NCBI GenBank assembly: GCA_025774845.1
Contig: JALGZP010000002.1
Coordinates: 348-64,347 of the forward strand
Source of the DNA: a bacterium
GTDB taxonomy: Bacteria; Arandabacterota; Arandabacteria; Arandabacterales; Arandabacteraceae
Length of the DNA stretch: 64,000 nt
Direction of reading: 5' to 3'
The notes beneath the pieces are model-generated. The model did not search any database. It was not told the DNA's origin and saw nothing but the letters and a program-made list of their open reading frames with translations. Within the stretch, counting starts at the first letter, position 1. Each line of letters starts with the position of its first letter. Of this stretch, positions 16,193 through 46,797 are shown piece after piece. The position numbers and the translations under genes were made by a program.

Positions 16193-16360
16193 CCGTCCAC
16201 CCCACTTTTCCTGAACCTCCACCCAATCATATACAGATGGATAGGAGCACATCCTGGCTATTCTGATGTAGGATGCACCCAACAGTTGCAGTCTAATCCG
16301 GACTTCTCATGGTGTGAGGGGCAGTAACCCCGGGCACTCCGCAGGAGAAAGCTGGAACAG

Positions 16361-22566: not shown

Positions 22567-23347
22567 ATGCAGTCTCACCGTTACCTGAAAGTTCCCACAT
22601 CGGGGTGTTTCCCACGACGGAGTGTATCTCAGCAAAACCCATCTTCTTTAGATCCGCCATCTGTCTTACGAGAATCTTCGGTGCCGTGTCCATCTTGGTG
22701 GCCAGCTCTTTTACCGAATGGGGTTTACCCTTGAGCCGTTCCAGTATCTCTCTCAGTCTGAATTCATCCATCGCTATCTCGTCAAAGAGCCTACCTATCT
22801 CATGGGCCGTGAACTTCTCCCCGTAGAGGTTACCCTTCTCGGTGAATTCCACGATCTTGCCCGTGACCCATCTGATCTTACGGCCGCCGAGCGCCTTCCC
22901 CGCAGCCTGAAGCTTGACCTCAAGATCGTTCTTATCGATGCCCTCGGGCTTACCCAGGGGACCCAGCTCGGTGATATCCTTCTGGAACTCACCTGCGAAC
23001 TCGACGAACTTGTTGCCCTCAGCGCTCGACATCATACGCATCCGGAGTCTGGCAGGATCTATACCCGCCATCCTGAGGACCCGCTTGGTGATTTCCATCT
23101 TGCCCTCGGCATGGAGGTTACCCGAGGTATAATGGCACTCTCCACGCTTGCAGGCGCCCACGAACACTCCGTCCGCACCCGCCAGCAATGACTCGATGAC
23201 CATCACAGGATCCACCCTTCCCGAACACATCACTCTCACAACCCTGATGTCGGGTGCATATTGAAACCTCGCTACCCCGGCGAGGTCAGCCGCACTGTAT
23301 GCTCACCAGTTACAGCAGAAAGCTATGATGTGCGGTTTGAAACTCAT
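22559..23347 (-). CDS. mvhD: MvhD-like iron-sulfur subunit with in-frame UGA (candidate Sec in CCNW-U)
   Basis: Track ORF starts at 23239. Extending upstream in frame gives [47 protein letters not shown], with TGA at 23303..23305. The ATG at 23347 lies 2 nt after the upstream stop. Without the extension the conserved N-terminal Cys block of MvhD is missing. Confidence 0.8.
23267..23285 (-). promoter_or_regulatory. Candidate bacterial SECIS hairpin for UGA 23303
   Basis: mRNA folds as CCUCGC-CGGGGUA-GCGAGG. The 6-bp stem starts 18 nt after the UGA and loop Gs lie at +25 to +28. Confidence 0.6.
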
Positions 23348-23349
23348 AC

Positions 23350-26330: not shown

Positions 26331-27462
26331 GCTTCTTACCTCCCAATGATCCGGCCACAAGCGTGACCGCATCGGTTATCTCTATTTGACCTGAGCAATC
26401 CTCATCCCGCAGGGCGCATCTCAGGTGGATATTGCACTTCGGACAAGCGGTAACAAGCACCTGCGCGCCTGTTGAGATGGCTTCATCAAGTCTCTCGACC
26501 TGGATCTTCTTGTTGACCCTCGAGCAGCTCACCCAGTTGCTTGAACCACAGCAAAGTGCATCCTTACCCCTTCGCGTCATTTCCGCCAGCTCGAGATCGG
26601 GTATGCTCTTGAGCACGTTCCGAGGTTCCTCGATAATGTCATCAGACTTGGCGAGCCTGCAGGGATCGTGGTAGGTCACTTTGGTTTTGCGTGAATTCAA
26701 TCGTATGTCACCCATCTTTTCACTCAGAAGATCAAGGAGGAAGACCACCTCGAGCCCCATACCCCTTACGAACTCCGAATAGACGTGTTTGAACATGTGA
26801 TAGCATTCCGGACAGGAGAACACGACACGTTTTGCACCCGTCTTCTTTATAGCTGCGACATTACGTTTAGCAAGTTCCTTTACGAGATCGCCTCCCCCGG
26901 TCCAGTACTCATCATGACCGCAGCACACCTCACCTTCGCTGACGGCAGGTATGATGCCCAACTGATTGAGCAGACGTACGCTTGAGTTCCCGATCCCCCT
27001 GCCGTCGAAACCGATTTCCTTGAACACGACATCAAGAAAAGGCAGGCAGCCTCCGAAGTAATACGTGCTTGATCTCGACCGTGTCTTCGCGCCACGCCCC
27101 AGCCAGGAAGCCTGTCGTCTGAACCCTGGCATACGTTGCAGGTCGATCAGGGCTGCGAGTGTGTCCGCATGGGTGCAGACACCGCTCTCACCAACCTGTC
27201 TTGCGCGCTCCCTCATCGATCTCATGAAACCCGTGAAATCAACCGTGGACGGACACCGGAGATCACAGGTGCCGCAGGTGAGACAGCTCCACATTTCCGG
27301 GTCGTGCACACTTTCATCCTCACTGAAGAGGAGCGCCTTCTCCACGGTCAGCCGCGGTGAGTAGGCGTCGCGATGCCTGGAAACGGGACAACTGCCCGTA
27401 CAGATACCGCACTCGAGGCAGAGATATGCCTTTGTCTTATCTACGGCCGCGCGAAGCGACAC
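26320..27462 (-). CDS. HdrD-like (fused HdrC/HdrB) Fe-S protein with two CCG domains
   Basis: [12 protein letters not shown] and [12 protein letters not shown] (HdrC-like), then VCCGHDEYW and [11 protein letters not shown] motifs. Start placed at GTG 27462 after AGGAGGAGG; the track start at 27510 is a TTG. Confidence 0.8.
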
Positions 27463-34411: not shown

Positions 34412-35698
34412 TCAGCGGAAAGCCTTTATATACTGGCGGTAGCTTGCATTAAGGATGAGCATGGGAATGAGATAGTGGGTGCGCCTGCCCAGACTGAACG
34501 CCCTTCTCACCGTTCCTTTGAGCGAATAGAACTCATCCTCAATCCACCGGCGGCCCCGATCGAGTTCTTCAACTGTCATCTTGGCCGGCTTGAAGACCGT
34601 GTGCGCGATATCGTACTTCCTCCAGTCCTCGGTGATTATGCGGTTCTCACGCTTGAGCCGCTCCTGAAGCTTGGTCCCCGGGAAAGGAGTCAGGATCCCG
34701 AACTGGGCGAAATCTATCTTGGTCTTGTTGATGAAATCCAGTGTGCGCTTGAAAACACTCTTATCATCATGGTCGAAACCAAATACGAAAGCTCCCTCGA
34801 TGCTGATACCGGTGTCATGTATCCTCTTGATGTGATCATGGAACCGGGCAACCACGTTGAAGCTCTTCCCCACTTCTCTGAGGCTATCGGGCATTATCGA
34901 CTCAAAGCCGACAAAGACCCCCCGGCACCCGGCCTTGTGCATCATCTTCAAGAATCCGAGGTCCTTCCCTATCGTGATGGGTGCCTGGCAGATCCACTTG
35001 ACATTCAGTGGGGCAATCCCTGCAAAGAGCTCTCTTGCATACGAGCGACTACCCGCCAGATTATCATCGACAAAGACCACGAACTTTGTGGCGAGGGCAC
35101 GTATCTCATCTACCACTGAGCCCACCGACCGGAACCTGAATTTGTCTCCAAAGAAGCGCTGGACGCTGCAGAAGTCACAGCCAAGGGGACAGCCCCTGGA
35201 TGTCTGGACCGTTCCTTTGAGGAAGTAGCCCTTGCGCTCGAAGATATCCCTTCTGGGAATTGATATCTGTGAAGGATCTGGCTTCCTACCCCTGTAAAAC
35301 TTCTTGAGGCGTCCGGCCCTGAAGTCCGCGAGCAGCCTCGGCCATATTCCCTCAGCCTCACCGATCGCGACACAGTCCGCGTGCTGAATAGCCTCAAACG
35401 GTACGGCAGACGGATGTATTCCGCCCAGGACCGTCTTTACTCCCCGTTCTCTGTATTGATGTGAGATCTCGTACGCCCTCGGGGCATTCGCGGTCAGACT
35501 GGTTATGGCAACGAGATCGGGGGTGCTCGCAAAGTCCAGGTCGCGCATACTTTCATCAACCATCTCAATCTCAAAATCATCGGGTGTGAGCGATGCCAGA
35601 ATCCCAAGAGCCAGCGGCGGAACCTGAAAGGCACGTCCTGAGATACTACGTTTCTCTTTCTTCCCCGTTCCCGGGGCGGCCAGGAGAATCTTCAACAT
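34412..35698 (-). CDS. B12-binding-domain radical SAM protein
   Basis: 428 aa. N-terminal cobalamin-binding-like Rossmann fold (DLVAITSLTANA...VLGGIHPS), then SRGCPLGCDFCSV (CxxxCxxC). Confidence 0.85.
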   Translation of the reverse strand: MLKILLAAPGTGKKEKRSISGRAFQVPPLALGILASLTPDDFEIEMVDESMRDLDFASTPDLVAITSLTANAPRAYEISHQYRERGVKTVLGGIHPSAVPFEAIQHADCVAIGEAEGIWPRLLADFRAGRLKKFYRGRKPDPSQISIPRRDIFERKGYFLKGTVQTSRGCPLGCDFCSVQRFFGDKFRFRSVGSVVDEIRALATKFVVFVDDNLAGSRSYARELFAGIAPLNVKWICQAPITIGKDLGFLKMMHKAGCRGVFVGFESIMPDSLREVGKSFNVVARFHDHIKRIHDTGISIEGAFVFGFDHDDKSVFKRTLDFINKTKIDFAQFGILTPFPGTKLQERLKRENRIITEDWRKYDIAHTVFKPAKMTVEELDRGRRWIEDEFYSLKGTVRRAFSLGRRTHYLIPMLILNASYRQYIKAFR

Positions 35699-35776
35699 AG
35701 CCTCCGATACGTATGATGAGATCTATGTTAAGCGGAGGCTACAGGATGGGGGCGTAAATGTCAAGGTCGGGCGGTC

Positions 35777-37138
35777 TCAGCGTATGTAACCCAGAGACTT
35801 GAGCTGGTCGATCTGGTCGCGGCTGAGCTTGGGACTGCGTGTCTTGAGCTCGGCGCGTCTCAACCGCATTTCGTAGTCCCACTCATGCAGTTCCGTCTGC
35901 ATCTTTCTGAGAGTCGTCAGGTCATCTACACTCACGTCCCGCTTCTCTCCGGGATCTTCAGCCAGGTTGATCAACTGGGTCACGTCACTGGTCGGATCGT
36001 AGATCAGTTTCAAACCGTCACGGATCATCGTCTGGAAGGTACCCCACCTCATGGTCTCGCTGAACACCGCCCGGGGCTGGGGCGTTTTGCCGCCGGCAAA
36101 CTCAAGCGCCACTCCATCGTGCGTATACCCATCCGGCATCTCGAGACCGTTCAGACTGAGGATTGTGGGTGCGATGTCCACGAGCCCTACATGCTGGTCT
36201 ATGACCCTTGCCGTGGTTTCTCCCGGAAGCCTGATCATCAGGGGCACGTGAATCAGCTCCTGATAGACGGTCTTGGTGTGGCCGATCCAGTTATCTCCGC
36301 GCTCAAGGAACTCTTCGCCGTGATCGGCAGCGATGATGATAATCGAATTGTCGTAGAGCCCCTGCTCCTTGAGCACGTCCAGGAACCTCCCGACATGCTC
36401 GTCCGTGAACCTGATTTCCGAATCGTAGAGAGCGTTCAGGTAGTCTACGTCATCTTCGGTCATCTCCGGGGCCAGCTCTCTCAGGTCACTGATCGTCTGG
36501 CCGCTGAGGAGCGTTCCATCATAGTCAGGATAGTAGTTGTACTCCTCATGCTGGATGTAGTCGCAATGAGGATCGAAGTAATGCAGGAACAGGAAGAACT
36601 TGCGATCCTTGTGCTCTTCGATAAAGGCGACAGCCTTGTCGGTGACCGACGGTGACGACACATGGCCGTGCCCCTGGGAGTTTTCCTCGTCATAGATGTC
36701 AAAGCCCTGGCCTATGCCGAAGGTGTTCGAGATATAGGCATGCGCGATTATTCCCCCGGTCGCGTAGCCACTGTTCCTGAGTACTTCGGCCAGGCAGGGG
36801 AACTTCTCGTCAAGTACAACTGCCTGATCCTGGTACCCGAGAACGTGTGGGTACTGGGCCGTGAACATGCTCGCCACCGTTGGAGTGGTCCACGGAGCAG
36901 GAGAAATTGCATTCCTGAACAAGACGGCGTCAGCGGCGAACTTGTCGAGATTGGGAGTCGTGTTCCGGTCGTACCCGTAGCAGCCGACATGATCTGCTCT
37001 CATGGTATCGATCATGATCAGTATGACATTGTGCCTGTCTTTTGCCGTCAGATTGTCATCATCATCGGCCGCAGTACACGCGACCAGTGCAATGGCGGCC
37101 ATCAGGAACGCGAAGGAGACCCGTCTCATAAGCATCAC
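35777..37138 (-). CDS. Exported sulfatase-fold (AlkP superfamily) hydrolase/transferase, Thr at nucleophile position
   Basis: 453 aa. VILIMIDTMRADH...SPAPWTTPTVASMFT...IIIAADHGEEF. No C/S-x-P-x-R formylglycine motif. Confidence 0.8.
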   Translation of the reverse strand: MMLMRRVSFAFLMAAIALVACTAADDDDNLTAKDRHNVILIMIDTMRADHVGCYGYDRNTTPNLDKFAADAVLFRNAISPAPWTTPTVASMFTAQYPHVLGYQDQAVVLDEKFPCLAEVLRNSGYATGGIIAHAYISNTFGIGQGFDIYDEENSQGHGHVSSPSVTDKAVAFIEEHKDRKFFLFLHYFDPHCDYIQHEEYNYYPDYDGTLLSGQTISDLRELAPEMTEDDVDYLNALYDSEIRFTDEHVGRFLDVLKEQGLYDNSIIIIAADHGEEFLERGDNWIGHTKTVYQELIHVPLMIRLPGETTARVIDQHVGLVDIAPTILSLNGLEMPDGYTHDGVALEFAGGKTPQPRAVFSETMRWGTFQTMIRDGLKLIYDPTSDVTQLINLAEDPGEKRDVSVDDLTTLRKMQTELHEWDYEMRLRRAELKTRSPKLSRDQIDQLKSLGYIR

Positions 37139-37185
37139 ATATTACTATATTGCACTCAACGTCATGGGGAAAGTGCTTTCGATCG

Positions 37186-39195
37186 CTAACGTGAGAGGAT
37201 GATCTTCTTGCTCACCATGCCGGGGCCTGTAGCTACCGAGACGAAGTAAACGCCGGGGGCCACTCTATCACCGTACGAGTCTCTGAGATTCCAGGTAAAC
37301 GGCCCGGCTTCTCCGATAGCACCCTTCCTTACGACCCGGCCCAGGATGTCATAGATCTCGACTCTTCCTTTCGCACCCGGCCGGGACAACGAGATTGCAG
37401 CATAAGATGTTGCCGGGTTGGGGTAGCATGTCACGACCAGTGCCGGATTCTCGATATCGATTCCGCCCAGACCGCCGAACCAGTCCACAATCCTTGAGAG
37501 CAGGAGCACACGGTCCTCCGGAGTCGAGATCGCTTCGAACCCAAAGGAGAGATAGACGACCTTCGAGGAATCCGAGTCGAATCGGACCCCACCATGCTTG
37601 GCCGGATCACTGTAGTCAAAAATGACCTGAGCGGGTGCGACCGAATCTATCACATCGGGGTAGTTCTGGTTATTTGCCCCGTCTCCACCCTGGATCGTAA
37701 TCGACAAGCCGTCGGTTATGGGATCACCCGCCCGCCCGGACAAATTCCAGAGGTTGGAATTCGGCATGATGTGCCGTGCGTGAAGGTAGTTCCTGTAGAA
37801 TGTCTCGGAGTCCTCCGAATATTCATGACTGTTGATATCGTCAAGACCCCAGCCGATGTCCTGCCCCGTCAGGAAGAGCCGGCCGTCGCCTGCGAGGTAT
37901 GAGGTTAGAACCGATTGATCGTGCACATCAAGACTCGGGGCGGCATGGCCGGTGAACCAGACCACAAATTCCGTCGCGTCGAGGTCGTCAAGCTCGGGAA
38001 CGTCGATTGTCCGATCCCAGGTCCCCCACGAGATACCTAAGGAATCGAGTGCGTCTTCGTAGTAAGGCTCGAGATCATAGCCTCCATCGTCATCGACTAT
38101 GAGAGCGCATACACCTGAGATGGCAAGGTACCGGAGACTCCGGCTGAAAGCAGGGTCCCGGCGCGATGTCAGGGTCAGAGTCGCCACCCCGGTACCGGTG
38201 TCATAGCCGCAGCCGATGGTAACGTTGATGGCACAGGAGCTGTCACTCTCGAGGGCGACTGAACCACCCAGTGGAACGCCACCCACGACTTCGTAATCTG
38301 CGGACCAGTCCGAGGGTAGCTGCTGTGTGAAGTCTATGTCAAACGTGTCCACAACCGACGTGCGACTTAACAGCGTTCCGGGGAAGACTGCGTCCCTTCC
38401 TTCACCGGCAACATCCCCGCGTCTCGGCGCGGTGTATCTTGCCCAGGCCGCCGGTGGCTGTGCGGACGACACTGCCTGGACTATACTCGTGTCTGTTTCA
38501 TCCTGGATAAAAACAATGGTGCTGACGTTGGCCGGGTCCCACGATGGGTCAACCTCAAAGGCGAGATTGAAGTCCAGGGTTTCCCCGGCGTCTATCGCGA
38601 ACGCGATCCCGCCGGGATCGGGAACGAAATCCCTGAAGACAAAGTTGAAAATGTCCTGACCGTTGGGTGCCTCATAGTATATGCTGTCCTCGATCGCGGC
38701 CGCTCTTAGGATCAGGCTGTCCGCCAAAGGCTCCCACTCCGCTATCACGCTTATGTCAACAAAGCAGGAATCGCCGCTCAATGAGTCACTCGCCACCAGC
38801 TTTATCGGGCTCGGGACGTCAAGATTCTCATCGATCACATCCTTGATCGGTCCAACGAAGCAGGACTTCGGTCGCTTGACGCCGTCGATGAACATCGCCG
38901 GCATCTTGGTGATTGAGTAGTAGCCTAAGCGTTCCTCAATCTCCACCGGGTTGGCAAGGTAGAAGGGATCTAACGCCCACGGATCCCTTCCGTGGTATCT
39001 GATCATCACAACATCAACTGGACTGTAATAAACGAGCATCGAATCCAAACTTGGATTCAGGCAGCGGCCTCACCCGCAGCCGACATTGATCGCGTGCTCG
39101 ATCAGCACCGTCCGTCTCGCCGCGTCCGCAGTACCGACGCCAACAGCAGCCAGAACCGCCATCGCTACCAGACACCAGATTAAGAATCTTTGCAT
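37186..39195 (-). CDS. Exported thioredoxin-fold / Ig-like protein with in-frame UGA (candidate Sec, GCG-U-GRC) and Por/FlgD-Ig C-terminal domain
   Basis: Track ORFs 39070..39270 and 37186..39048 share one frame and are separated by TGA at 39070..39072. Only the upstream piece has a signal peptide (MQRFLIWCLVAMAVLAAVGVGTADA). Read-through gives RRTVLIEHAINVGCG-U-GRCLNPSLDSMLVYY...IRYHGRDPW...PAMFIDG. C-terminus is YPNPATSYAAISL...GVYFVSV. Confidence 0.65.
39041..39058 (-). promoter_or_regulatory. Candidate bacterial SECIS hairpin for UGA 39070
   Basis: Perfect palindrome GAAUCCAA-GU-UUGGAUUC, realistically a 6-bp stem with an AAGUUU loop. Starts 12 nt after the UGA with the loop G at +20. 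Confidence 0.5.
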
Positions 39196-39335
39196 TCTAC
39201 CCCTATGTCTCAAAATAACAAATAAAGCGGAACGCGCCTGCGTCCCGCTCCAACACAACAATGGTACCACGAAACCCGCTCGAAGTCAAGTCAAACCCGT
39301 GGGGTTCAGGAGCCCGTGATGGCGCCCTGTGCCGG

Positions 39336-39761
39336 CTACTTACCCAGGAGGGCCTGGAAAGTATCCAGATGATCTTCCTCTTCAGCCAGAATTGTCTTAA
39401 ACATCGTGACCGTGGTGTAGTCTTTCTCCTTCTCGGCCAGCGCTATTATCTCCTTGTAGAGCTTGACTGCACCCTGTTCGGCCTTGATATCCTCCCTGAC
39501 CATCTGTCTGAAGGTCTTGCCCACTGTGATCGGGTCCGGTTCAGTGGTCGGGCGGCCACCGAAGTAAGCGAGTCTCATCGCTATCTCTTCGGCATGTCTC
39601 ATCTCGGTCAGCGCAATAGCCCTCAACTCATCCTTCACCGTGAAACCCTCGATCCCCTTCCAGAGCACCTGCTGCCACATGTACTGGATCGAAACCTGGA
39701 TCTCTCTCGCTATCGCCTTGTTTAGAAGTACCATCAGTTTCTTCGAAGCCATACCGAACAC
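39336..39761 (-). CDS. Bacterioferritin/ferritin-like di-iron protein
   Basis: 141 aa. LNKAIAREIQVSIQY...TEMRHAEEIA...EEEDHLD matches the ExxH ferroxidase pattern. Confidence 0.7.
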   Translation of the reverse strand: MFGMASKKLMVLLNKAIAREIQVSIQYMWQQVLWKGIEGFTVKDELRAIALTEMRHAEEIAMRLAYFGGRPTTEPDPITVGKTFRQMVREDIKAEQGAVKLYKEIIALAEKEKDYTTVTMFKTILAEEEDHLDTFQALLGK

Positions 39762-39790
39762 CTCCGTTCATTGGACCGCCAGTGCCGCTC

Positions 39791-40537
39791 CTACTTTACT
39801 ATCGGTGACGCCTCCTGGTCAAATGGATTGGTTCTCATTGCCAGTGAGAAGAGATAAGGATAGTGGTTCTTGAGGTGTTTCATGTAATCCAGCCATTCGC
39901 TGACCAGCAGGACATAGGCTCTCCTTATGTCCCCTGCCAGATGCTTGTAGTCGCTATCCGGTAAGCCGGCCAGATCCCCACGACTCCGGACTTCCTCAGT
40001 GAGATGAAAAACCGCACGGAGAAGATCGGTGAAAGTCTCATGTTCGAGCAGAGCGGGGTTCTCAAGAAGCCGAACCATAAAATCCCTCTTGGTGATCAGA
40101 AAGTTCCGCAGGTTCTCGAGGTCAACCTTGGTGATATCGATCCCATAGTCATACGACCTGAGATGGCGGCTCACGACTTCGAATTCTTTATCTGACCAGT
40201 CATTTGAGACAATCATCTTCTTTCTGATGCTATCGAGTCCGGGATCGGCATCCGAGAGTGACACAAGAAGCCCCGTCCCAGCCTCACTAAAGAAGGTCCC
40301 TATGACCATGTTGAGTTTCTCAAGCACTATCCGCTTCTCCCGCCGGACAAGCAGGCTGTGGATTATCAGGGTAACAAGCAGCACTTCGATCGGAACAAAC
40401 GCTACGTCTCCCACCATGTATATGAATATGTGATGGGCATCGTGGAAGACCGTATAGTGGAAGAAATACAGCACCGCGGACAACACAACCAGCGAAAGAC
40501 CCAGGACAATCTGCCAGCGCCGAAACGTCATATGCAA
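39791..40537 (-). CDS. Hypothetical membrane protein (2 N-terminal TM helices)
   Basis: 248-aa ORF with a hydrophobic N-terminus and a soluble helical C-terminal region. I recognise no family. Confidence 0.55.
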   Translation of the reverse strand: MHMTFRRWQIVLGLSLVVLSAVLYFFHYTVFHDAHHIFIYMVGDVAFVPIEVLLVTLIIHSLLVRREKRIVLEKLNMVIGTFFSEAGTGLLVSLSDADPGLDSIRKKMIVSNDWSDKEFEVVSRHLRSYDYGIDITKVDLENLRNFLITKRDFMVRLLENPALLEHETFTDLLRAVFHLTEEVRSRGDLAGLPDSDYKHLAGDIRRAYVLLVSEWLDYMKHLKNHYPYLFSLAMRTNPFDQEASPIVK

Positions 40538-40625
40538 TCACTCCTCCCCATGTGAACGACGACTTGCGCCCATACTCCTTTGATTCTGACTCCTTGAGGT
40601 CGACCGGGGTTGCTCAACCGGTCCG

Positions 40626-41387
40626 CTAAATCTGACAGTCATGGCAGGCATAGGTGATCCGCCCGGCCTGCCGAAACGACTCCACACGGCCTCCGCATCT
40701 CGGACATGGTCTGCTCTTGCCGCGATAGACGCGGATCCACTCATCCTCCCTCCCCCGCTCCTCAAGCCATTTCTTCATCAGTCTGAGTGTCCAGTCTGTA
40801 AGTCGCCGCTTGTCATTCCGGGAAAGCCGGGCCACTTTTCTCCGGGGGTGGATCTTCGCTCGAAACATGACTTCGATCCGAAGGATATTCCCCACACCTG
40901 AAACGATCGTCTGATCAAGGAATGCCTCCCCGATCGTATAGGAAGGCCTGGCATCAAGACGCCGCAGGAACTCTCTCCTGGAAAAGTCGCTTCTCAGAGG
41001 ATCCGGACCCAGATTGCCCCATGTCGGGTGCCGATCGAGGTCCTCCTGAGTGAGAAGTCTCACAACAGGCGCCGAGAACGCAACGGCGGCGTGGGAACCG
41101 GTAGTCAGAATCAGGCGAGCGCGCTCACGCGGTCTATCCCAGGTCTCCGCTTTACGATAGATGCGCCAGTAGCCCCACATCATGAGGTGTACAAGAATGA
41201 TCCTCTCATCGGAAAGTCTGATACGGAATTGCTTGCCGTAGGCTTCAACGTCGTTGATGCGCAGGTTCCGGAGCGAAGACTCGAACCGCTTGAGCTTGCG
41301 AACACCGAACTCGATCCGGACCCTTTTACCCTTGAGCACCCTTCTGAGCTGCCTGGCATTGTAGTGTACTAAAGGACCTTCCGCCAT
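40626..41387 (-). CDS. Fpg/Nei-family DNA glycosylase
   Basis: 253 aa. H2TH block LDQTIVSGVGNILRIEVMFRAKIHP and C-terminal zinc finger CPRCGGRV...YACHDCQ. The N-terminus is MAEGP rather than MPEGP. Confidence 0.8.
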   Translation of the reverse strand: MAEGPLVHYNARQLRRVLKGKRVRIEFGVRKLKRFESSLRNLRINDVEAYGKQFRIRLSDERIILVHLMMWGYWRIYRKAETWDRPRERARLILTTGSHAAVAFSAPVVRLLTQEDLDRHPTWGNLGPDPLRSDFSRREFLRRLDARPSYTIGEAFLDQTIVSGVGNILRIEVMFRAKIHPRRKVARLSRNDKRRLTDWTLRLMKKWLEERGREDEWIRVYRGKSRPCPRCGGRVESFRQAGRITYACHDCQI

Positions 41388-41415
41388 AATTCAATCCCGG
41401 GTGGACCTCAACCGC

Positions 41416-42396
41416 TCACTCTTCCACCATTGCCCTGAAGGCTTCGTCCTGCCTGAGTGCTTCAAGATCGGAGTCGTCACGCGCCATCTTCTTAAATTCA
41501 GGTGACAGCGTGAGGGCCTGTCCAAGAGTCTCCAGCGCCTCATCCTTCATACCGGATAGCGAGTAATAACATGCTAGGTCATACAGGGCTTCCGGCAAGG
41601 TGGGGTTGAGTTCAACCGCCCTCAGGGCCGCACCCAGAGCTCCGTCGAGATCGCCTTCCTCTTTCAAGGCACTTGCCTCAAAGAGAGCGCTGTAGGAGAG
41701 CTGGATCCCCAGCAGGCGTGACAATTCATCAATCGGTTCGGCATGATCATCGACTCTCAGGTCGATATACCTGTCATTGAGACCCAGGTATCCCCCGGCC
41801 TCTTTGACCACGAGCAGTGAAGCCGACTGCTTGCCCCTGGAGTCACCACCGGCTTCCTCACCGGCCTTGAGTGCCTTGACCAGACGAAGAGCCAGCTCAC
41901 CCTCGGTCTCCCCGAAGGTCTGGGACATCGCGGTGATGGCCGTCCCATCAACGAGTATGTTACCCTGGCAGGCAAAGTACTTACCGGCCTTGCCACCGGC
42001 CCAGGCGATGCACTCCTTGCCGGTGAAGGTGGCCGACCGTCCCACTGCATCCACTATCCCGACCTGCCGTCGGTCCCTGCCTTCGTCGGAGCCGACCAAG
42101 CTCTCCAGGACTTCATTCGGATCAAGACCGGACGCAAGAAGCGCAAGACCCTCCGGGCCATACATCGTATTGGCATATGACTGGGTCGCAACGGCTCCGA
42201 CCCCCGCGCTTGCCCACGGTACGACTGCACCGACCGCGAGGAATTTCGAAGCCACTGCTACACCAAGCTCGCCCGTCTCCGGATCGAATCCCACAATCGA
42301 GAAAGTGGAAACCTGTGAAGTCCTGTTTGGCGCAGTCGCAAGACAGACCGCCACACAACCCCAGATAAGAACCGTACTGATCAGTAGCTTTTTCAT
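41416..42396 (-). CDS. Exported DUF1028 (Ntn-hydrolase fold) protein with C-terminal TPR region
   Basis: 326 aa. STFSIVGFDPETGELGVAVASKFLAVGAVVPWA is the characteristic DUF1028 N-terminus. TPR-like helices at the C-terminus. Confidence 0.75.
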   Translation of the reverse strand: MKKLLISTVLIWGCVAVCLATAPNRTSQVSTFSIVGFDPETGELGVAVASKFLAVGAVVPWASAGVGAVATQSYANTMYGPEGLALLASGLDPNEVLESLVGSDEGRDRRQVGIVDAVGRSATFTGKECIAWAGGKAGKYFACQGNILVDGTAITAMSQTFGETEGELALRLVKALKAGEEAGGDSRGKQSASLLVVKEAGGYLGLNDRYIDLRVDDHAEPIDELSRLLGIQLSYSALFEASALKEEGDLDGALGAALRAVELNPTLPEALYDLACYYSLSGMKDEALETLGQALTLSPEFKKMARDDSDLEALRQDEAFRAMVEE

Positions 42397-43616
42397 CGCT
42401 CTCCCCTCCTTCCCCAGAAGAAGACAAGCATATCGTCAATATGAGCACGCCAGTTGCCCCAGCTGTGTCCTTCGTTGAACTCCTGGTACTTCAGGCGATA
42501 CCCCTTTTCGGTGAGAATAGTCTGCATCCTCCTGTTTTCGCTCAGGAGATCGCCGAATTTCCCGCAGTCAATATAGAAGTCGACAAGCTGTTTCGGACTC
42601 TCCTCCGCCTGCATGAGGAGTTTCCCATCATCCACTTCAAATGCCCCCGACTGCGACCCGCACATACCGAAAATCTCCGGGTGATTCATCGCAATCATAA
42701 AGGATATGGCACCACCGAGCGATGCTCCCATGATCGCGGTATCGTCCGGGCGGGTGCTGACGTCATAGCGCACGCGGATGAACGGCATGATCTCTTCGAT
42801 CAGTAACCGTTCATAGTCGGCGTTCAGCCAGTATTCGTAATTCCTGTCGAACGGATCGATGAAAACGGCGATGATAGGAGGAATACGGCCCCGTCGGATT
42901 ATGTTGTCCAGCACGTTGACCATCGAGGCGAGTGTGATGTACTCTCCACCGTCCTGCACAAAAACAACAGGATACGGCCCGGGATTTGCGGCCACGCCTG
43001 TCGAGTCGGGCCGGGACCCGTACGGCATATAGACCTGGATCTTCCTCGTACTGGGGAGTATGTCGCTCGTGAACTCATGAACATCGACTGTGCCCCGCTG
43101 CGGGAACATGGCCTCGGCAATCTCAGATGGTGGCACGTAGTCAGGCATGCTGAATTCGGAATTGTCTCCAAAACCGCCTGTTATCGTCCTCGCGTTGAGC
43201 GGGTCAAGCATCCAGAGCCGGTCGACATAGAACTTATAGTCTATGCGCGCGTCCATCGGCATGGTGAGTGTAAGGTAGTACAGGTTGGTCCGTCCCAGCC
43301 TTGTCATCTCACGGGTCTTTGTATCCCAGCGGTTTATGTCAGAGGGGACGGTTGCCCTCAAGCCCACCGCGCCATGGTAGACAAAGGTGACCAGACTATC
43401 TTCGATTAGCGGGAATTTCCCGTTGTTTTCCTCAAGGAAGTTGGTCACCGGCCAGCCGCCCGTACCCGAATAGGCGCGTCCAAGCCTCTCCTGCAATCTT
43501 CTAATCCTGGGGCTCATGATCTCCGACTCATCTTCGGGGTAGCAGAGACCGCTCAGGGCCAGAAACAGACCCATTGTAAGGACCAGTATGATTGCCGATC
43601 GTACCACACTAACCAT
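42393..43616 (-). CDS. Exported esterase (enterochelin-esterase-like alpha/beta hydrolase)
   Basis: 407 aa. N-terminal Ig/CBM-like domain, GASLGG nucleophile elbow and HSWGNW near the C-terminus. Confidence 0.7.
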   Translation of the reverse strand: MVSVVRSAIILVLTMGLFLALSGLCYPEDESEIMSPRIRRLQERLGRAYSGTGGWPVTNFLEENNGKFPLIEDSLVTFVYHGAVGLRATVPSDINRWDTKTREMTRLGRTNLYYLTLTMPMDARIDYKFYVDRLWMLDPLNARTITGGFGDNSEFSMPDYVPPSEIAEAMFPQRGTVDVHEFTSDILPSTRKIQVYMPYGSRPDSTGVAANPGPYPVVFVQDGGEYITLASMVNVLDNIIRRGRIPPIIAVFIDPFDRNYEYWLNADYERLLIEEIMPFIRVRYDVSTRPDDTAIMGASLGGAISFMIAMNHPEIFGMCGSQSGAFEVDDGKLLMQAEESPKQLVDFYIDCGKFGDLLSENRRMQTILTEKGYRLKYQEFNEGHSWGNWRAHIDDMLVFFWGRRGER

Positions 43617-43755: not shown

Positions 43756-46700
43756 TTGGGACGCCGGGAGTGTGCCGACTCACCGGTGTTTTTATATGTA
43801 TGCTTACATGAGAGGAACATATTGAAACTAAACAGGTTATTGCCATTGCTGGCGGTACTCGTGCTCCTTTTCATTCCTTCCTCGTGCTACCCGATATGGC
43901 ACTGCGGAGACATCGAGCTGCCTGCCGAGCCCCGTACGACCCTGATCGATCCCGTGACGGGAGATTTCTTTGTCGGTGCCGCCTCGGCGCACCTCATGAG
44001 AATCGACGAGGCCACATATGAAGTGACCCTGTTCGACCTTGTAGATACCCCGGTGGCAATGGGATTGGACCCGGCTGCAAGGTTGCTCTACGCCTGCCAT
44101 GCCGACCCCGGTATGGTGACAATCATGAGCATCGAGACAGGCGACACTACCCTGGTTGCGGTCGGGAAGTCCCCATCGGGTGTGGCTATAGATCCGATCC
44201 GCGGCCTGGCGTACGTGGCGGCCGCGGGTGACAGCACCATTTGGGTCCTGGAAAGCTCGGCCGTATCAGACACAATCGAATGCGTTGGCAGCCCTGCCGC
44301 CGTCTCCGTAGATCCATGGACGGGAAGGGGTTTCGCAGCGCTCACCGACTCCGACCTGCTTTTCGACTTCGATACCTCAACCGGTGATACGGCATACTTC
44401 ACCACCGGGCTCGCACCCGCGGACATAGAGATTGATCCCGAGAAAGGTGAACTCTACATCGCGAACTCCGGGGAGGCCACGATAACGGTCTTCACCATTG
44501 ACTCGGACTCGGTTTACAGTGTCTCAGTCGACGGTCCGGTCACGACCCTCGCACTCAATCCCGAAACCGGGCGCCTTTTTGCCGGTACCACACCGGCCGG
44601 TGTTACCATTGTAGACACGGACACATATACGACGCAGAACGTCGGGCTCCCGGCCGAGCCCGGGTTTATCTCGATAGATGGTCTGGCCGACAGAGCTTTC
44701 GCAGGCCTTCCCGACGCGGACCTTCTCATCGAGATAGACTCAGCCGGTGACACCCTGATGATCCCGGTTCCGGGAAGTCCGGCCATGCTTGCGGTCAACC
44801 CCGTGACCTATAAGTGCTATGTCACCGATACCGAGTCATGGGCATTGAGTGTCTTCGAGGCGATCAACCTTAGCGGCGAGCGCGTCTCAGCCCCGGGCGG
44901 TCCCGGTCAGGTGAAAATCAACTTAGAGGACCACAAAGTCTATTCACCGAAGTGGTGGGTCACGGGGCTCGTGGTCATAGACGGTTACACGAATCAGGTA
45001 TCCTCGCTCCCAACCGCAGACGGCCCGAACGCTGTGCACATAGACCCCGTAAGCGACGATCTCTACGTAGTCTGCGCCTGGGCGAACAGGGTGATGGTGA
45101 AAAGGAGCGATAGCCCGGATACCGTGCTTGTGCCCCTGGGCGACTATGCCCACGGGATGGGCCTCAATCCCAATACCGGAAGAGCATTCGTAAGCAACAG
45201 GTACTCGAGGGATCTGACCGTCATTGACATGGCGACGCTCGATACGACGCTCGTAAGAATGGGTGGCTACCCGTGCCATGTCGATGTTAATCTCGACCAC
45301 AACAGGGTTTACGTTCCCAATCGAACCAGCTGGTCCCTCTCAGTAGTAGATGGGGCCCTGCTGACGACGACTTTTACACCAATCGGCCGCGCGCCCACAA
45401 TCGCCCGTGTCGAACCCGTGACCAACAAGATCCTGACTGCCGATAGCGGCGGAAGGACGATTTCAGTTGTGGACGGGATTACACTCGAGCGTGTCGAGAT
45501 CCCGGTGGGAACGACCCCACGAGGCGTGGGAGTCAACTCGAACACCAACACCATATACGTATCAAGCTCCATGGATGGCGAGGTAACCGTGATCGACGGA
45601 GACACGTACGAAAGGACTCCCGTTCCGTGCGGGGCTCTCGTCTTCGCTGTTAAGGTGGATCCGTGGCTCGACCGGGTTTTCACACCCAGCTGGTCATTTG
45701 ACACGGTGCACATGATTGACGGTAACTTCAAATCGATGCTGACGATCCCGGCAGGTGGTGAGCCGCATGGTACTGCCTACGACCCGGTGCTTGAGAAGTT
45801 CTACATCGCCAACCATGCGGGAAACTCCATCGACATCATACAGTTCAGGGAGAAGATCTCTCCGAGACTGGAAGTAGCCATCGACACTTTGCCCGGTGAC
45901 GTTGCCTACATCCCGACACCGACTATCACGGGGACGGCGACATCGCTCAGGACCCCGCGGAACTATGGCATAATGAAGGTGCTTTACAAGATAGACAATC
46001 TCAGAGGTCCCTGGAGCGAAGCCACCATCATTGGTCAGGGAGCGAGTGTCCCGTGGGAGATCACGACTCCCCCGCAGCTCCTTGGTGCCCATCTGATCTT
46101 CGTTGCTGCCATTGACAGCACGGCCGGCTCGCTTTCGTCGTCTTCCTTATCCTCACTTGTGCGGATGAGTGATATCGCCTGTTATGAGTTCACGTGCCTT
46201 ACCCCACCACCCGGAGCCCCCGAGCTGGTTATCCCGGATGATGAACAGCTCGGCGGCCAGAGCCTGGCATGGACTCCGACGTGTGGAGATGACGGATGGT
46301 ACGATATCGAGTTGTCTCCCGATCCGGATTTCTCAGGCGGGGTGACCACAATCAGTGCGATCGGTTCACCATCATACACGCTGTCTGCAGGTGAGGTGGA
46401 AGGTGGCCTGTCTTACTGGCGGGTTGCGGCTGTTGACTACCCGCACGGCAAACGTAGCGACTTCAGCCCTGTCTACACCATAAGCCTCGCAGACGGTCCG
46501 GGAGGTCCGGCAGGTCCGGCTCTGGCACAATGGGCGCTTACCGTCTATCCGAATCCTGCGTCGGAAAACGTGTCACTGAGACTGGCCGGTGCAAACCCGG
46601 CAAAGAGCCACTGCACGGTCTATGATGTTGCAGGCAGATTCGTTGCCGCCATACCCCTGGTGGCATCTGATAACGGCCTCTCCGGCTCGTGGAGTGCTAC

Positions 46701-46797
46701 TGACGCATGGGGCAACCCGCTACCCCAGGGAGTGTACTATGCGCGGATCAAGGCCGGCGGAGAAACCTTCGAACACAAGATCATCCTGTTACGCTGA
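43756..46797 (+). CDS. Exported YVTN/YncE-type beta-propeller repeat protein with Por/FlgD-Ig C-terminal domain
   Basis: 1013-aa ORF. The true start is probably TTG 43822 after GAGAGGAA, giving (M)KLNRLLPLLAVLVLLFIPSSC. Repeats such as LYIANSGEATITVF, VYVPNRTSWSLSVVD and IYVSSSMDGEVTVID. C-terminus is YPNPASENVSLRL...GVYYARI. Confidence 0.8.
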   Translation: MGRRECADSPVFLYVCLHERNILKLNRLLPLLAVLVLLFIPSSCYPIWHCGDIELPAEPRTTLIDPVTGDFFVGAASAHLMRIDEATYEVTLFDLVDTPVAMGLDPAARLLYACHADPGMVTIMSIETGDTTLVAVGKSPSGVAIDPIRGLAYVAAAGDSTIWVLESSAVSDTIECVGSPAAVSVDPWTGRGFAALTDSDLLFDFDTSTGDTAYFTTGLAPADIEIDPEKGELYIANSGEATITVFTIDSDSVYSVSVDGPVTTLALNPETGRLFAGTTPAGVTIVDTDTYTTQNVGLPAEPGFISIDGLADRAFAGLPDADLLIEIDSAGDTLMIPVPGSPAMLAVNPVTYKCYVTDTESWALSVFEAINLSGERVSAPGGPGQVKINLEDHKVYSPKWWVTGLVVIDGYTNQVSSLPTADGPNAVHIDPVSDDLYVVCAWANRVMVKRSDSPDTVLVPLGDYAHGMGLNPNTGRAFVSNRYSRDLTVIDMATLDTTLVRMGGYPCHVDVNLDHNRVYVPNRTSWSLSVVDGALLTTTFTPIGRAPTIARVEPVTNKILTADSGGRTISVVDGITLERVEIPVGTTPRGVGVNSNTNTIYVSSSMDGEVTVIDGDTYERTPVPCGALVFAVKVDPWLDRVFTPSWSFDTVHMIDGNFKSMLTIPAGGEPHGTAYDPVLEKFYIANHAGNSIDIIQFREKISPRLEVAIDTLPGDVAYIPTPTITGTATSLRTPRNYGIMKVLYKIDNLRGPWSEATIIGQGASVPWEITTPPQLLGAHLIFVAAIDSTAGSLSSSSLSSLVRMSDIACYEFTCLTPPPGAPELVIPDDEQLGGQSLAWTPTCGDDGWYDIELSPDPDFSGGVTTISAIGSPSYTLSAGEVEGGLSYWRVAAVDYPHGKRSDFSPVYTISLADGPGGPAGPALAQWALTVYPNPASENVSLRLAGANPAKSHCTVYDVAGRFVAAIPLVASDNGLSGSWSATDAWGNPLPQGVYYARIKAGGETFEHKIILLR

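What the first reader, a model, noticed from the sequence alone, without database searches (positions are those of the whole stretch)
37186..39195. Second exported candidate selenoprotein: Trx-fold domain with GCG-U-GRC, followed by a perfect 18-nt palindrome
ORFs 39070..39270 and 37186..39048 share a frame and are split by TGA at 39070..39072. The upstream fragment supplies the only signal peptide (MQRFLIWCLVAMAVLAAVGVGTADA). Read-through gives RRTVLIEHAINVGCG-U-GRCLNPSLDSMLVYY...VMIRYHGRDPW...YYSITKMPAMFIDG. This resembles the thioredoxin-fold N-domains (..E.FT...C..C...NP...YH..DP...P....DG) of exported CTD proteins. The palindrome GAAUCCAA-GU-UUGGAUUC (39041..39058) starts 12 nt after the UGA. 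The Cys/Sec spacing (C-x-U-x2-C) is not a textbook CxxC, so this is the least secure of the four sites.
Basis: partly seen in the sequence, partly recalled or inferred. Interest (0 to 1): 0.65.

Follow-up and report, generated by a model that had tools for sequence, protein, structure and literature searches.

The report
Secreted thioredoxin-like selenoprotein with displaced selenocysteine
The in-frame TGA is almost certainly a real selenocysteine codon in a secreted, thioredoxin-like surface protein of an uncultured Eisenbacteria bacterium, and the selenocysteine sits two residues away from where this protein family normally keeps its second active-site cysteine.

Summary
One 669-codon gene (37186..39195, minus strand) is interrupted only by TGA at 39070..39072. 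A perfect 7-bp hairpin (39041..39058) follows it.

The TGA very probably encodes selenocysteine:
- Among positional orthologues from GTDB and JGI assemblies, six further genomes have TGA in exactly this column and five have Cys.
- All the TGA forms are otherwise intact ORFs of 668-693 aa.
- The hairpin, 18 nt from the UGA to its loop and with an invariant loop G, is kept in every TGA form. Its synonymous sites are frozen. It is absent from the older Cys clade.
- The window also holds TGA-interrupted MvhD/FlpD and HdrA-like genes, and TGA is otherwise a normal stop there.

The protein has a signal peptide, an HBP35-like module (thioredoxin fold plus Omp28-type beta-sandwich), a further beta-sandwich, an uncharacterised alpha/beta domain and a type IX secretion sorting domain.

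The active site is remodelled. The canonical C-x-P-C has become C40-G-U42-G-R-C45, so Sec replaces the Pro, Gly replaces the second Cys, and a new Cys appears at +3.

It is a distant relative, not a member, of NCBI's "Omp28-related selenoprotein" (GOS_C, UxxC). I class it as a new variant of a known kind. Its function, a cell-surface thiol/selenol-disulfide oxidoreductase, is inferred.

The parts
37186..39195 (-). Complete selenoprotein gene, 669 codons including Sec42. The stop codon TAG is at 37186..37188.
   Evidence: Orthologues of 668-693 aa have the same architecture.
39121..39195 (-). Signal peptide, residues 1-25 (MQRFLIWCLVAMAVLAAVGVGTADA). The likely cleavage is after A-D-A.
   Evidence: Read directly from the sequence. 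Equivalent hydrophobic N-termini occur in all orthologues. No signal-peptide predictor was available.
39070..39072 (-). UGA = selenocysteine codon 42.
   Evidence: TGA in 7 orthologous genomes and TGC in 5 at the same column. Upstream codons show mostly synonymous change.
39061..39078 (-). Remodelled redox motif C40-G-U42-G-R-C45. It sits at the position of the canonical C-x-P-C, just before helix alpha1.
   Evidence: Ungapped alignment to the family consensus E-x-F-T-N-T-x-C-x-P-C-A-x-x-N-P. In the AlphaFold model of orthologue P0004 the C-G-C lies between beta1 and alpha1.
39040..39059 (-). SECIS-like hairpin. The 7-bp perfect stem GAAUCCA/UGGAUUC has a closing U.G and loop AGUU. The loop begins 18 nt after the UGA.
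   Evidence: It is kept without a broken pair in 7 TGA orthologues. Stem codons are identical in all synonymous comparisons.
38821..39117 (-). Thioredoxin-fold subdomain, about residues 27-125, including the invariant Pro99 of the loop before beta3.
   Evidence: The secondary-structure order is b-a-b-a-b-b-a in the models. Foldseek hits HBP35, tryparedoxins and thioredoxins. The profile hits thioredoxin 1fo5. Pro is invariant.
38458..38820 (-). Omp28-type beta-sandwich, about residues 126-246. With the thioredoxin subdomain it forms the HBP35-like module.
   Evidence: Pfam PF11551 Omp28 at 2e-9, 38 bits against a cutoff of 34.9. PDB hits 5y1a and 2r2c.
38116..38448 (-). Second beta-sandwich (Ig-like) domain, about residues 250-360.
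   Evidence: All-beta in the AlphaFold model of orthologue P0004, residues 250-358. The profile weakly hits S-layer Ig-like domains.
37471..38112 (-). Uncharacterised alpha/beta domain, about residues 362-575, with motifs LIVDDDGG, GGDGANNQ and VYLSFGFE.
   Evidence: Alternating beta/alpha elements in the model. No Pfam family for ours; one of 38 homologues hits DUF4350 weakly. Relatives occur in 431 stretches of GTDB genomes.
37189..37425 (-). Type IX secretion C-terminal sorting domain, residues 591-669.
   Evidence: PF18962 at 33.3 bits (cutoff 27). TIGR04183 at 36.8 bits (cutoff 23). The profile hits solved T9SS CTD structures 8glj and 8glk.

Best explanation
The TGA at 39070..39072 is decoded as selenocysteine.

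Decoding (inferred). The hairpin at 39041..39058 acts as the bacterial SECIS. It recruits SelB with Sec-tRNA(Sec) to the ribosome paused at codon 42, so one 669-residue protein is made.

Export (inferred from domain matches). The signal peptide takes the protein across the inner membrane. The C-terminal sorting domain takes it through the type IX secretion system to the cell surface or the medium.

Protein (shown). The N-terminal module is homologous and structurally similar to HBP35 of Porphyromonas gingivalis. That protein is a T9SS cargo whose thioredoxin-type Cys pair is needed for disulfide-reductase activity.

Active site (alignment shown, chemistry inferred). The site is rebuilt to C40-G-U42-G-R-C45:
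- The canonical first Cys is kept.
- The canonical second Cys is lost (it is Gly43 here).
- Sec occupies the canonical Pro position.
- A new Cys lies one helical turn further on.

The most likely chemistry is thiol/selenol-disulfide exchange on extracellular substrates. Sec42 would be the attacking nucleophile. The resulting selenylsulfide would be resolved by Cys40 (a CxU pair, conserved in all orthologues as CxC or CxU) and/or by Cys45 (a UxxC pair, found only in the Sec-type clade).
For: Sec decoding:
- Orthologues show TGA/Cys alternation in exactly this column, 7 TGA and 5 Cys.
- They are positional orthologues. DUF1028 lies upstream and sulfatase or B12-radical-SAM genes lie downstream in both types.
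- The TGA forms range from 51% to 86% pairwise amino-acid identity (53-85% to ours), yet each keeps one in-frame TGA and an intact 668-693 aa ORF. They form one clade, sister to a C-G-C clade.
- Upstream of the TGA, changes between ours and L007 are 7 synonymous against 2 non-synonymous in 16 codons.
- The hairpin is kept with no broken pair in all 7 TGA forms, and three one-sided changes preserve pairing.
- Codon identity among synonymous pairs is 109/127 in the hairpin codons against 233/545 in the flanks. Codons 4-7 and 9 are 100% identical.
- The C-G-C clade lacks the hairpin. L008 (TGC, 95% identical to L043) still has it, which suggests a recent Sec-to-Cys switch.
- The loop starts 18 nt after the UGA and has an invariant G at its second position. 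The window's HdrA-like and thioredoxin-like sites have GGUC loops. This matches the stable downstream hairpin with conserved apical-loop guanosines drawn in PMC2398784.
- The same window has TGA-interrupted FlpD/MvhD and HdrA-like genes. TGA also ends ordinary genes there.
- An independent contig, L001, has the same TGA.

Protein identity:
- Pfam Omp28 and the T9SS CTD score above their cutoffs.
- phmmer finds 2087 relatives with a conserved E.FTNT.C.PC...NP motif.
- The family profile's best PDB hit is HBP35, 5y1a. Thioredoxins and Omp28 also hit.
- AlphaFold models reach pLDDT 90 (orthologue P0004) and 94 (homologue P0110).
- Foldseek's top hit is HBP35, with TM 0.72 and E = 2.9e-11.
- HBP35 loses insulin-reducing activity when C48 and C51 are mutated, and it is surface-exposed through its CTD (PMC2907840).
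Against: - No selA, selB, selC or selD gene and no tRNA-Sec lies in the window. Sec use is inferred only from the other TGA genes.
- The hairpin shows no double compensatory change. It overlaps a conserved peptide (L-N-P-x-L-D-S), so part of its conservation is protein-level.
- Rfam finds nothing.
- The 71-nt region as a whole is not unusually stable.
- In the wider family the column is Pro, not Cys, so the Sec/Cys pairing rests on one clade of about 12 genomes.
- The models are of a Cys orthologue and a distant homologue, not of this protein, and no coordinates were inspected.
- No electron donor is known for a redox enzyme outside the cell.
- T9SS machinery was not looked for beyond the window.
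- HBP35's physiological role is tied to hemin use, not clearly to redox catalysis.
Confidence: 0.8

Rival explanations
1. The Sec/Cys site is mainly a ligand rather than a catalyst. On this reading the protein is a surface binding or acquisition protein for haem, a metal or a metalloid, like HBP35 in hemin use. C40, U42 and C45 would form a soft-ligand site. The gene is still a selenoprotein, but it works differently.
For: HBP35 binds hemin and is needed for growth when hemin is scarce (PMC2907840). A triad C-x-U-x-x-C is not a standard redox motif. No extracellular reductant is known. A ferritin-like gene lies next door at 39336..39761.
Against: In HBP35 hemin binding maps to M135-P344 and does not need the Cys pair, whereas the Cys pair is needed for reductase activity. 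The site sits at the standard thioredoxin active-site position, and the family's invariant Pro (Pro99 here) lies just before beta3, where thioredoxin-fold proteins carry their cis-Pro loop. The older sister clade has only C-G-C, a pair rather than a triad.
Confidence: 0.15
2. The TGA is read through or recoded as something other than Sec, for example near-cognate Trp/Cys insertion or a lineage-specific reassignment.
For: No Sec machinery is visible in the window. No curated SECIS model matches.
Against: TGA ends ordinary genes in the window, for example at 34412, 41416 and 46795. The column alternates specifically with Cys. A conserved hairpin sits at SECIS distance with an invariant loop G. 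Two classic selenoprotein families in the window have TGA at their known Sec positions.
Confidence: 0.03
3. The gene is a pseudogene or two separate genes. The TGA would be a true stop, and any downstream product would start at TTG 39048 or a nearby codon.
For: Gene callers split it this way. P0001 starts at MLVYY, and a 41-aa ORF is called upstream on L001.
Against: A downstream-only product would lack the signal peptide, strand beta1 and the active site of a secreted thioredoxin-fold protein. Seven genomes at 51-86% pairwise identity keep this single TGA and no other defect. The upstream fragment is under purifying selection. Cys orthologues are continuous.
Confidence: 0.02
4. The TGA is a sequencing or assembly error.
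For: None specific. The reads were not available.
Against: The same TGA occurs in the independent JGI contig L001 and in six other MAGs from different studies.
Confidence: 0.005

Closest known systems
HBP35 (35-kDa hemin-binding protein) of Porphyromonas gingivalis, PDB 5Y1A
   Same: It has a signal peptide, then a thioredoxin-fold subdomain with the active site before alpha1, then an Omp28-type beta-sandwich, and a T9SS C-terminal sorting domain. It is the best PDB match by profile (2e-6) and by fold (TM 0.72). Its Cys pair (C48, C51) is required for insulin reduction (PMC2907840).
   Different: HBP35 has a canonical W-C-G-Y-C-P motif and no Sec. It is 344 aa and lacks the extra beta-sandwich and the alpha/beta domain. 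Here the second Cys is replaced by Gly and Sec sits at the position of HBP35 Tyr50. Sequence identity is very low. Hemin binding was not tested here.
NCBIfam NF045500 'Omp28-related selenoprotein' = 'Hypothetical protein GOS_C' (Zhang and Gladyshev 2008, PMC2398784; review PMC13188914)
   Same: It is a selenoprotein with a thioredoxin-like fold and unknown function. The NF045500 name calls it Omp28-related, and the GOS paper reports many Cys homologues. Our protein gives a weak but full-domain match (residues 20-242 to profile positions 31-264).
   Different: The score is 21 bits against a cutoff of 200. Orthologue P0004 scores 41 and paralogue L026 scores 54. The GOS_C motif is UxxC, with Sec at the first Cys. 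Here the first Cys is kept and Sec is two residues further on. Architecture and phylum also differ.
W-U-x-Y-C-P paralogues found here in Krumholzibacteria, Eisenbacteria and related MAGs (for example L026, L033)
   Same: They have the same overall architecture, with an HBP35-like N-module, the same alpha/beta domain (GGDGANNQ, VYLAFGFE) and a CTD. Thirty-two of the fetched loci carry an in-frame TGA followed by a hairpin.
   Different: In these, Sec sits at the canonical first Cys (UxxC). N-domain identity to ours is too low for tblastn to align it (matches start near residue 85). Their hairpin sequences differ.
Thioredoxin-like selenoproteins Sec.1 (CxU) and Sec.2 (UxC), PF13192 (listed in PMC13188914, citing Santesmasses et al. 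2017)
   Same: They set a precedent for a thioredoxin-fold protein with Sec one residue away from a Cys (CxU).
   Different: They belong to a different Pfam family (Thioredoxin_3). I did not compare sequences, so this is a resemblance taken from the review table only.
Omp28 outer-membrane lipoprotein of P. gingivalis (PF11551, PDB 2R2C)
   Same: Our protein has a Pfam match above the gathering cutoff, and the beta-sandwich matches structurally.
   Different: The solved Omp28 domain covers only the beta-sandwich. Omp28 is described as a lipoprotein, not a CTD cargo, and it has no Sec.

Membership tests
Bacterial selenoprotein (SelB/SECIS-dependent UGA decoding) | In-frame UGA with conserved coding sequence on both sides | tested here: met
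   One TGA sits in a 669-codon frame. Both flanks are conserved at protein level in 12 orthologues, with mostly synonymous change upstream.
Bacterial selenoprotein (SelB/SECIS-dependent UGA decoding) | Cys in the same column of homologues (Sec/Cys pair) and further TGA-containing homologues | tested here: met
   7 TGA and 5 TGC among positional orthologues. In distant canonical homologues the column is Pro.
Bacterial selenoprotein (SelB/SECIS-dependent UGA decoding) | Stem-loop just downstream of the UGA with a conserved G in the apical loop | tested here: met
   A 7-8 bp stem with its loop 18 nt after the UGA. The loops are AGUU, GGUC or AGGU, and the G at loop position 2 is invariant. Synonymous sites are frozen. 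No double covariation was seen, and no curated model is available.
Bacterial selenoprotein (SelB/SECIS-dependent UGA decoding) | Genome encodes selA, selB, selD and tRNA-Sec | not testable with these tools
   None lies in the 64-kb window, and the rest of the genome is not available. Indirect support comes from the FlpD/MvhD and HdrA-like genes with TGA in the same window.
NF045500 Omp28-related selenoprotein (GOS_C) | HMM score at or above the curated cutoff of 200 bits | tested here: not met
   21.2 bits. The orthologue scores 40.8 and the paralogue 54.
NF045500 Omp28-related selenoprotein (GOS_C) | UxxC motif, with Sec at the first position of the CxxC | tested here: not met
   The motif here is C40-G-U42-G-R-C45, and the canonical first Cys is kept. 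The family motif is taken from PMC13188914 and PMC2398784.
HBP35-like / Omp28 superfamily (PF11551 plus thioredoxin-like N-subdomain) | Pfam Omp28 match above the gathering score | tested here: met
   38.0 bits against 34.9, residues 92-244. 36 of 38 homologues match.
HBP35-like / Omp28 superfamily (PF11551 plus thioredoxin-like N-subdomain) | Two-lobed fold as in PDB 5Y1A | tested here: met
   The Foldseek top hit of the family model P0110 is 5y1a, with TM 0.72 over 229 columns. The orthologue model P0004 has the same element order. Our own sequence could not be modelled because of the stop codon.
HBP35-like / Omp28 superfamily (PF11551 plus thioredoxin-like N-subdomain) | Canonical C-x-x-C active site | tested here: not met
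   The second Cys column (Cys in 120/124 relatives) is Gly43 here.
Thioredoxin fold | b-a-b-a-b-b-a topology with the redox motif at the N-terminus of alpha1 and a conserved Pro before beta3 | tested here: met
   DSSP order in the models. Thioredoxin and tryparedoxin Foldseek hits. Invariant Pro97/Pro99. The cis conformation itself was not inspected.
Type IX secretion system cargo | N-terminal signal peptide plus a C-terminal sorting domain (TIGR04183/PF18962) above cutoff | tested here: met
   TIGR04183 at 36.8 against 23. PF18962 at 33.3 against 27. The signal peptide was judged by inspection.
Type IX secretion system cargo | T9SS machinery (PorU, PorV, SprA, GldK-N) present in the genome | not tested
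   No component was seen among the window ORFs scanned. Two other window proteins carry FlgD_ig-type C-terminal domains, and a third also carries Por_Secre_tail.

The most novel reading that the evidence does not exclude
C40-G-U42-x-x-C45 may be a three-chalcogen relay evolved for work outside the cell. Sec42 would attack substrate disulfides, or polysulfide or metalloid species. It would form a strained C40-U42 selenylsulfide, or alternatively a U42-C45 one, and hand oxidising or reducing equivalents between the two partners. That would let a T9SS-displayed enzyme turn over without a cytoplasmic thioredoxin-reductase partner. If so, this would be the first described surface-displayed, T9SS-secreted selenoenzyme class. 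Sec has entered the same HBP35-like scaffold at least twice, at the canonical first Cys in the W-U-x-Y-C-P paralogues and at +2 here.
Probability: 0.2. Interest if true: 0.65.

Novelty: new variant of a known kind. Interest (0 to 1): 0.45.

Why it matters
- Bacterial selenoproteins are overwhelmingly cytoplasmic or periplasmic redox enzymes. A Sec-containing cargo of the type IX secretion system implies selenium chemistry at the cell surface of uncultured FCB-group anaerobes. No paper in the searched library links Sec with T9SS cargo.
- The clade offers a natural series: C-x-P-C, then C-G-C, then C-G-U-x-x-C, then back to C-G-C-x-x-C in L008. This series could be used to ask what Sec buys in a thioredoxin fold when it is moved off the canonical position.
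- Current gene callers and the curated NCBIfam model miss these genes. They are split into a 41-aa stub and an N-terminally truncated 'hypothetical protein'. Selenoproteome counts for Eisenbacteria, Krumholzibacteria and their relatives are therefore underestimates.

Tried and rejected
- Rfam at gathering threshold on the whole window, and at E <= 10 on 38980..39110, found no SECIS family. It also missed the MvhD and HdrA-like sites, so the negative result says nothing.
- A word-indexed protein search with the read-through N-domain found only the truncated self-match and one distant protein. The exhaustive phmmer search was needed.
I therefore modelled the Cys orthologue P0004 and the single-domain homologue P0110 instead.
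- Single-sequence PDB searches of the N-module and of the middle region found nothing. Only the family profile reached HBP35.
- Foldseek with the full-length model returned only tandem Ig-like matches such as transglutaminases and macroglobulins, which was uninformative.
- tblastn of the N-domain against the window found no paralogue there.
- The alpha/beta middle domain could not be assigned. There is no Pfam hit for ours, and one weak DUF4350 hit among 38 homologues.
- I considered and rejected a genetic-code change, a pseudogene, two separate genes and a sequencing error. See the rival explanations.
Full report
**Observation**

On the minus strand the ORFs 39070..39270 and 37186..39048 share a frame. 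They are separated only by TGA at 39070..39072. Reading from ATG 39195 gives 669 codons. These comprise a typical signal peptide (MQRFLIWCLVAMAVLAAVGVGTADA), then ARRTVLIEHAINVGCG-U-GRCLNPSLDS..., and finally a C-terminal sorting domain.

The palindrome GAAUCCAAGUUUGGAUUC lies at 39041..39058, 11 nt after the UGA. It folds as a 7-8 bp stem with loop AGUU. Perfect stems of at least 7 bp are rare, with 38 in the window. The chance of one falling within SECIS range of a given TGA is about 1.3%. The surrounding 71 nt as a whole are not unusually stable (z = -0.46).

**Is the TGA real?**

An independent JGI contig (L001) has the same TGA and hairpin with SNPs nearby. There the gene callers produced a 41-aa stub and a truncated 'hypothetical protein' (P0001).

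**Who owns the window?**

A GTDB scan returned 80 loci. The closest is L007, 85% identical, a Candidatus Eisenbacteria MAG.

The window also contains other TGA-interrupted genes:
- An FlpD/MvhD gene interrupted by TGA at 23303 (FCCNW-U-AY). The downstream ORF matches PF02662 from profile position 10.
- An HdrA-like flavoprotein interrupted at 26163, next to an HdrB/C-like CCG protein.
- A third site (GSW-U-PAC) at 14714, in an LVIVD-repeat protein with a FlgD_ig C-terminal domain.

TGA also terminates ordinary genes in the window, so the genetic code is standard and the organism is very likely a Sec user. No tRNA or sel gene lies in the window.

**The decisive comparison**

The exhaustive phmmer search found 2087 relatives. 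Their consensus is R.VL.E.FTNT.C.PC...NP...YH.WWP...DPFY. Our motif aligns to this consensus without gaps:

| Our residue | Wider family at that column |
|---|---|
| C40 | Canonical first Cys (Cys in 126/130) |
| U42 | Canonical Pro (Pro in 95/129) |
| G43 | Canonical second Cys (Cys in 120/124) |
| C45 | No counterpart |

Distant homologues therefore do not have Cys at the UGA column.

The full-length orthologues (46-85% identical to ours, same 668-693 aa architecture) settle the matter:
- TGA forms: ours, L007, L009, L010, L011, L012 and L043 read N-x-G-C-G-TGA-[GA]-[RAS]-C-L-[NS]-P.
- Cys forms: L008 reads C-G-C-A-A-C. L013, L014/L005, L004 and P0004 read C-G-C-[AV]-[GS]-[VI]-L-D-P.

These are positional orthologues. 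DUF1028 lies upstream and sulfatase and/or a B12-radical-SAM gene lies downstream in both types.

In a neighbour-joining tree the C-G-U-x-x-C genes form one clade. L008 (TGC) is nested next to L043 at 95% identity. The C-G-C-x-x-[VI] genes form the sister clade, and canonical C-x-P-C proteins lie outside.

Each TGA gene has exactly one in-frame stop. Upstream of the TGA, ours and L007 differ by 7 synonymous and 2 non-synonymous changes in 16 codons. A pseudogene, a pair of separate genes or a sequencing error cannot produce this pattern.

**The hairpin**

All seven TGA orthologues keep the stem GAAUCCA/UGGAUUC. The loops are AGUU, GGUC or AGGU. The G at the second loop position is invariant, and the loop always starts 18 nt after the UGA.

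RNAalifold finds no broken pair. Three one-sided changes preserve pairing. There is no double compensatory change.

The stem lies inside the codons for L-N-P-x-L-D-S, so I compared synonymous sites. Among pairs of sequences with the same amino acid, codons are identical in 109/127 cases inside the hairpin and in 233/545 cases in the flanks. Codons 4-7 and 9 are identical throughout.

The C-G-C sister clade encodes L-D-P-G-L-D-S with different codons and has no hairpin. L008, the only Cys form inside the Sec clade, still has it, as expected after a recent Sec-to-Cys replacement.

The window's other sites have comparable hairpins: GGUC loops for the HdrA-like and thioredoxin-like sites, and CGGGGUA for MvhD. 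The GOS paper describes stable SECIS-like hairpins with conserved apical-loop guanosines downstream of the Sec-encoding TGA (PMC2398784), and this hairpin fits that description. Rfam found nothing, not even at the MvhD site, so it is uninformative.

**What the protein is**

Sequence-family matches:
- Pfam gives Omp28 (PF11551, above cutoff) and the T9SS sorting domain.
- NCBIfam gives TIGR04183 above cutoff.
- NCBIfam also gives a weak, domain-long match to NF045500 'Omp28-related selenoprotein', at 21 bits against a cutoff of 200.

According to a 2026 review, NF045500 is the GOS_C family of Zhang and Gladyshev (2008). That family has a UxxC motif, a thioredoxin-like fold and unknown function (PMC13188914, PMC2398784). 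Neither our protein, its Cys orthologue (41 bits) nor the paralogues (up to 54 bits) reach the cutoff.

Structure-based matches:
- A profile of 38 homologues hits, in the PDB, HBP35 of Porphyromonas gingivalis (5y1a, 2e-6), thioredoxins, Omp28 (2r2c) and solved T9SS CTDs.
- The AlphaFold2 model of orthologue P0004 (pLDDT 90) shows beta1, then C-G-C, then alpha1-beta2-alpha2-beta3-beta4-alpha3. Two beta-sandwiches, an alpha/beta domain and the CTD follow.
- The model of the single-module homologue P0110 (pLDDT 94) has HBP35 as its top Foldseek hit (TM 0.72, E = 2.9e-11). The Omp28 domain and many thioredoxins and tryparedoxins follow.
- The Pro before beta3 is invariant in the family.

HBP35 is a T9SS cargo displayed on the cell surface. 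Recombinant HBP35 reduces insulin faster than E. coli thioredoxin, and this activity is lost in the C48S/C51S mutant. Hemin binding maps elsewhere, to M135-P344 (PMC2907840). Our C40 corresponds to HBP35 C48 and our G43 to C51.

**Mechanism proposed**

Shown:
- The gene is one reading frame with a conserved UGA and hairpin.
- The product has export signals and an HBP35-like thioredoxin module with a rebuilt active site.

Inferred:
- SelB-dependent Sec insertion.
- Sec-pathway export, then T9SS-dependent secretion or surface anchoring.
- Thiol/selenol-disulfide exchange with Sec42 as the nucleophile.

The resolving partner is open. C40 and position 42 are invariant across both orthologous clades, which favours a CxC/CxU pair. 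C45 occurs in 8/8 genes of the Sec-type clade and in 0/4 loci of the sister clade (and not in P0004), which hints at a U-x-x-C pair half a turn further along alpha1.

A ligand role (haem, metal or metalloid) is the main functional rival. What the alpha/beta domain (motifs LIVDDDGG, GGDGANNQ, VYLSFGFE) does is unknown. It has no Pfam family, and relatives were found in 431 stretches of GTDB genomes.

**Context in the superfamily**

Many of the fetched loci share the middle and C-terminal domains but have an N-module of the HBP35 type W-C-x-Y-C-P. Thirty-two of these carry TGA at the first Cys (W-U-G-Y-C-P-R-A) with downstream hairpins, and thirteen have Cys. L076 has F-T-N-T-G-U-P-G-C-P. Sec has therefore entered this secreted scaffold repeatedly, and only the clade studied here places it at +2.

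**Novelty**

Thioredoxin-fold selenoproteins, an Omp28-related selenoprotein family and even CxU thioredoxin-like proteins (Sec.1, PF13192, listed in PMC13188914) are already known. What is new here:
- The displaced C-G-U-x-x-C site.
- The multidomain T9SS-cargo architecture.
- The Eisenbacteria lineage.
- The clean Sec/Cys orthologue series.

No paper in the searched library connects Sec with T9SS cargo. I rate it a new variant of a known kind, of moderate interest.

**Confidence**

- About 0.9 that the UGA encodes Sec.
- About 0.9 that the module is HBP35-like and the protein is exported.
- About 0.55-0.6 that the role is catalytic redox exchange at the cell surface.

Noticed in passing
window 14057..16282 (-), TGA at 14714..14716: Another in-frame TGA lies in an LVIVD-repeat protein. 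The motif is G-S-W-U-P-A-C, and a FlgD_ig-type C-terminal domain lies after the TGA. A small CCGC/GCGG hairpin with loop GGUC starts 13 nt after the UGA. It is probably a second exported thioredoxin-like selenoprotein.
   Followed up: partly
window 22559..23400 (-) and 25035..26375 (-): FlpD/MvhD (TGA at 23303, FCCNW-U-AY) and an HdrA-like flavoprotein (TGA at 26163, [11 protein letters not shown]) sit in an Hdr/Mvh-type cluster. The cluster also has a CCG-domain protein, several FAD/4Fe-4S oxidoreductases, a NuoF-like protein and a [FeFe]-hydrogenase-like protein. Both sites are at positions known to hold Sec in these families.
   Followed up: partly
loci L024, L026-L034, L036, L040, L044-L048, L050-L053, L055, L060, L061, L063, L068, L070, L071, L073, L075, L080, L083, L085, L086: Thirty-two GTDB genomes (Krumholzibacteria, Eisenbacteria, Acidobacteriota-like and unclassified MAGs) encode a paralogue with W-TGA-x-Y-C-P at the HBP35-type active site and the same alpha/beta domain plus CTD. 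Each has a hairpin downstream. None reaches the NF045500 cutoff in the three tested.
   Followed up: partly
L052, about 2800..2830: The paralogue reads A-T-W-TGA-G-TAG-C-P. The second stop is TAG (amber) where relatives have Tyr. This may be a pseudogene or a base error, and it is not a second Sec.
   Followed up: no
L008 1921..2000: The only Cys (TGC) form inside the Sec clade is 95% identical to the TGA form L043. It still has the complete SECIS-like hairpin, which is an apparent 'fossil' of a recent Sec-to-Cys switch.
   Followed up: yes
L001 2380..2390 versus window about 38000: The JGI contig splits the gene again after residue 369 (...FTGHAGSF, then a separate 228-aa ORF), whereas the window is continuous. 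This is probably an indel error in that assembly.
   Followed up: no
window 37471..38112 (-) and 431 GTDB stretches: An alpha/beta domain with motifs LIVDDDGG, GQDIGW, GGDGA[DN]NQ and VYL[SA]FGFE has no Pfam family (one weak DUF4350 hit). It is widespread in T9SS-type cargo of FCB-group candidate phyla. One match (L084) is labelled Thermoplasmata archaeon.
   Followed up: partly
window 34412..43616 (-): A neighbourhood is conserved around the gene in both Sec and Cys orthologues. It contains esterase, DUF1028-TPR, (Fpg/Nei-like, MJ1433_C-like, ferritin-like), the gene itself, sulfatase and a B12-binding radical SAM gene. No functional link is evident.
   Followed up: partly
window 9283..13959 (-) and 43756..46797 (+): Two more large secreted proteins carry T9SS-type C-terminal domains. 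One is a 1558-aa papain-family (C1) peptidase with lectin-like, beta-helix and fn3 domains. The other is a 1013-aa beta-propeller protein.
   Followed up: no
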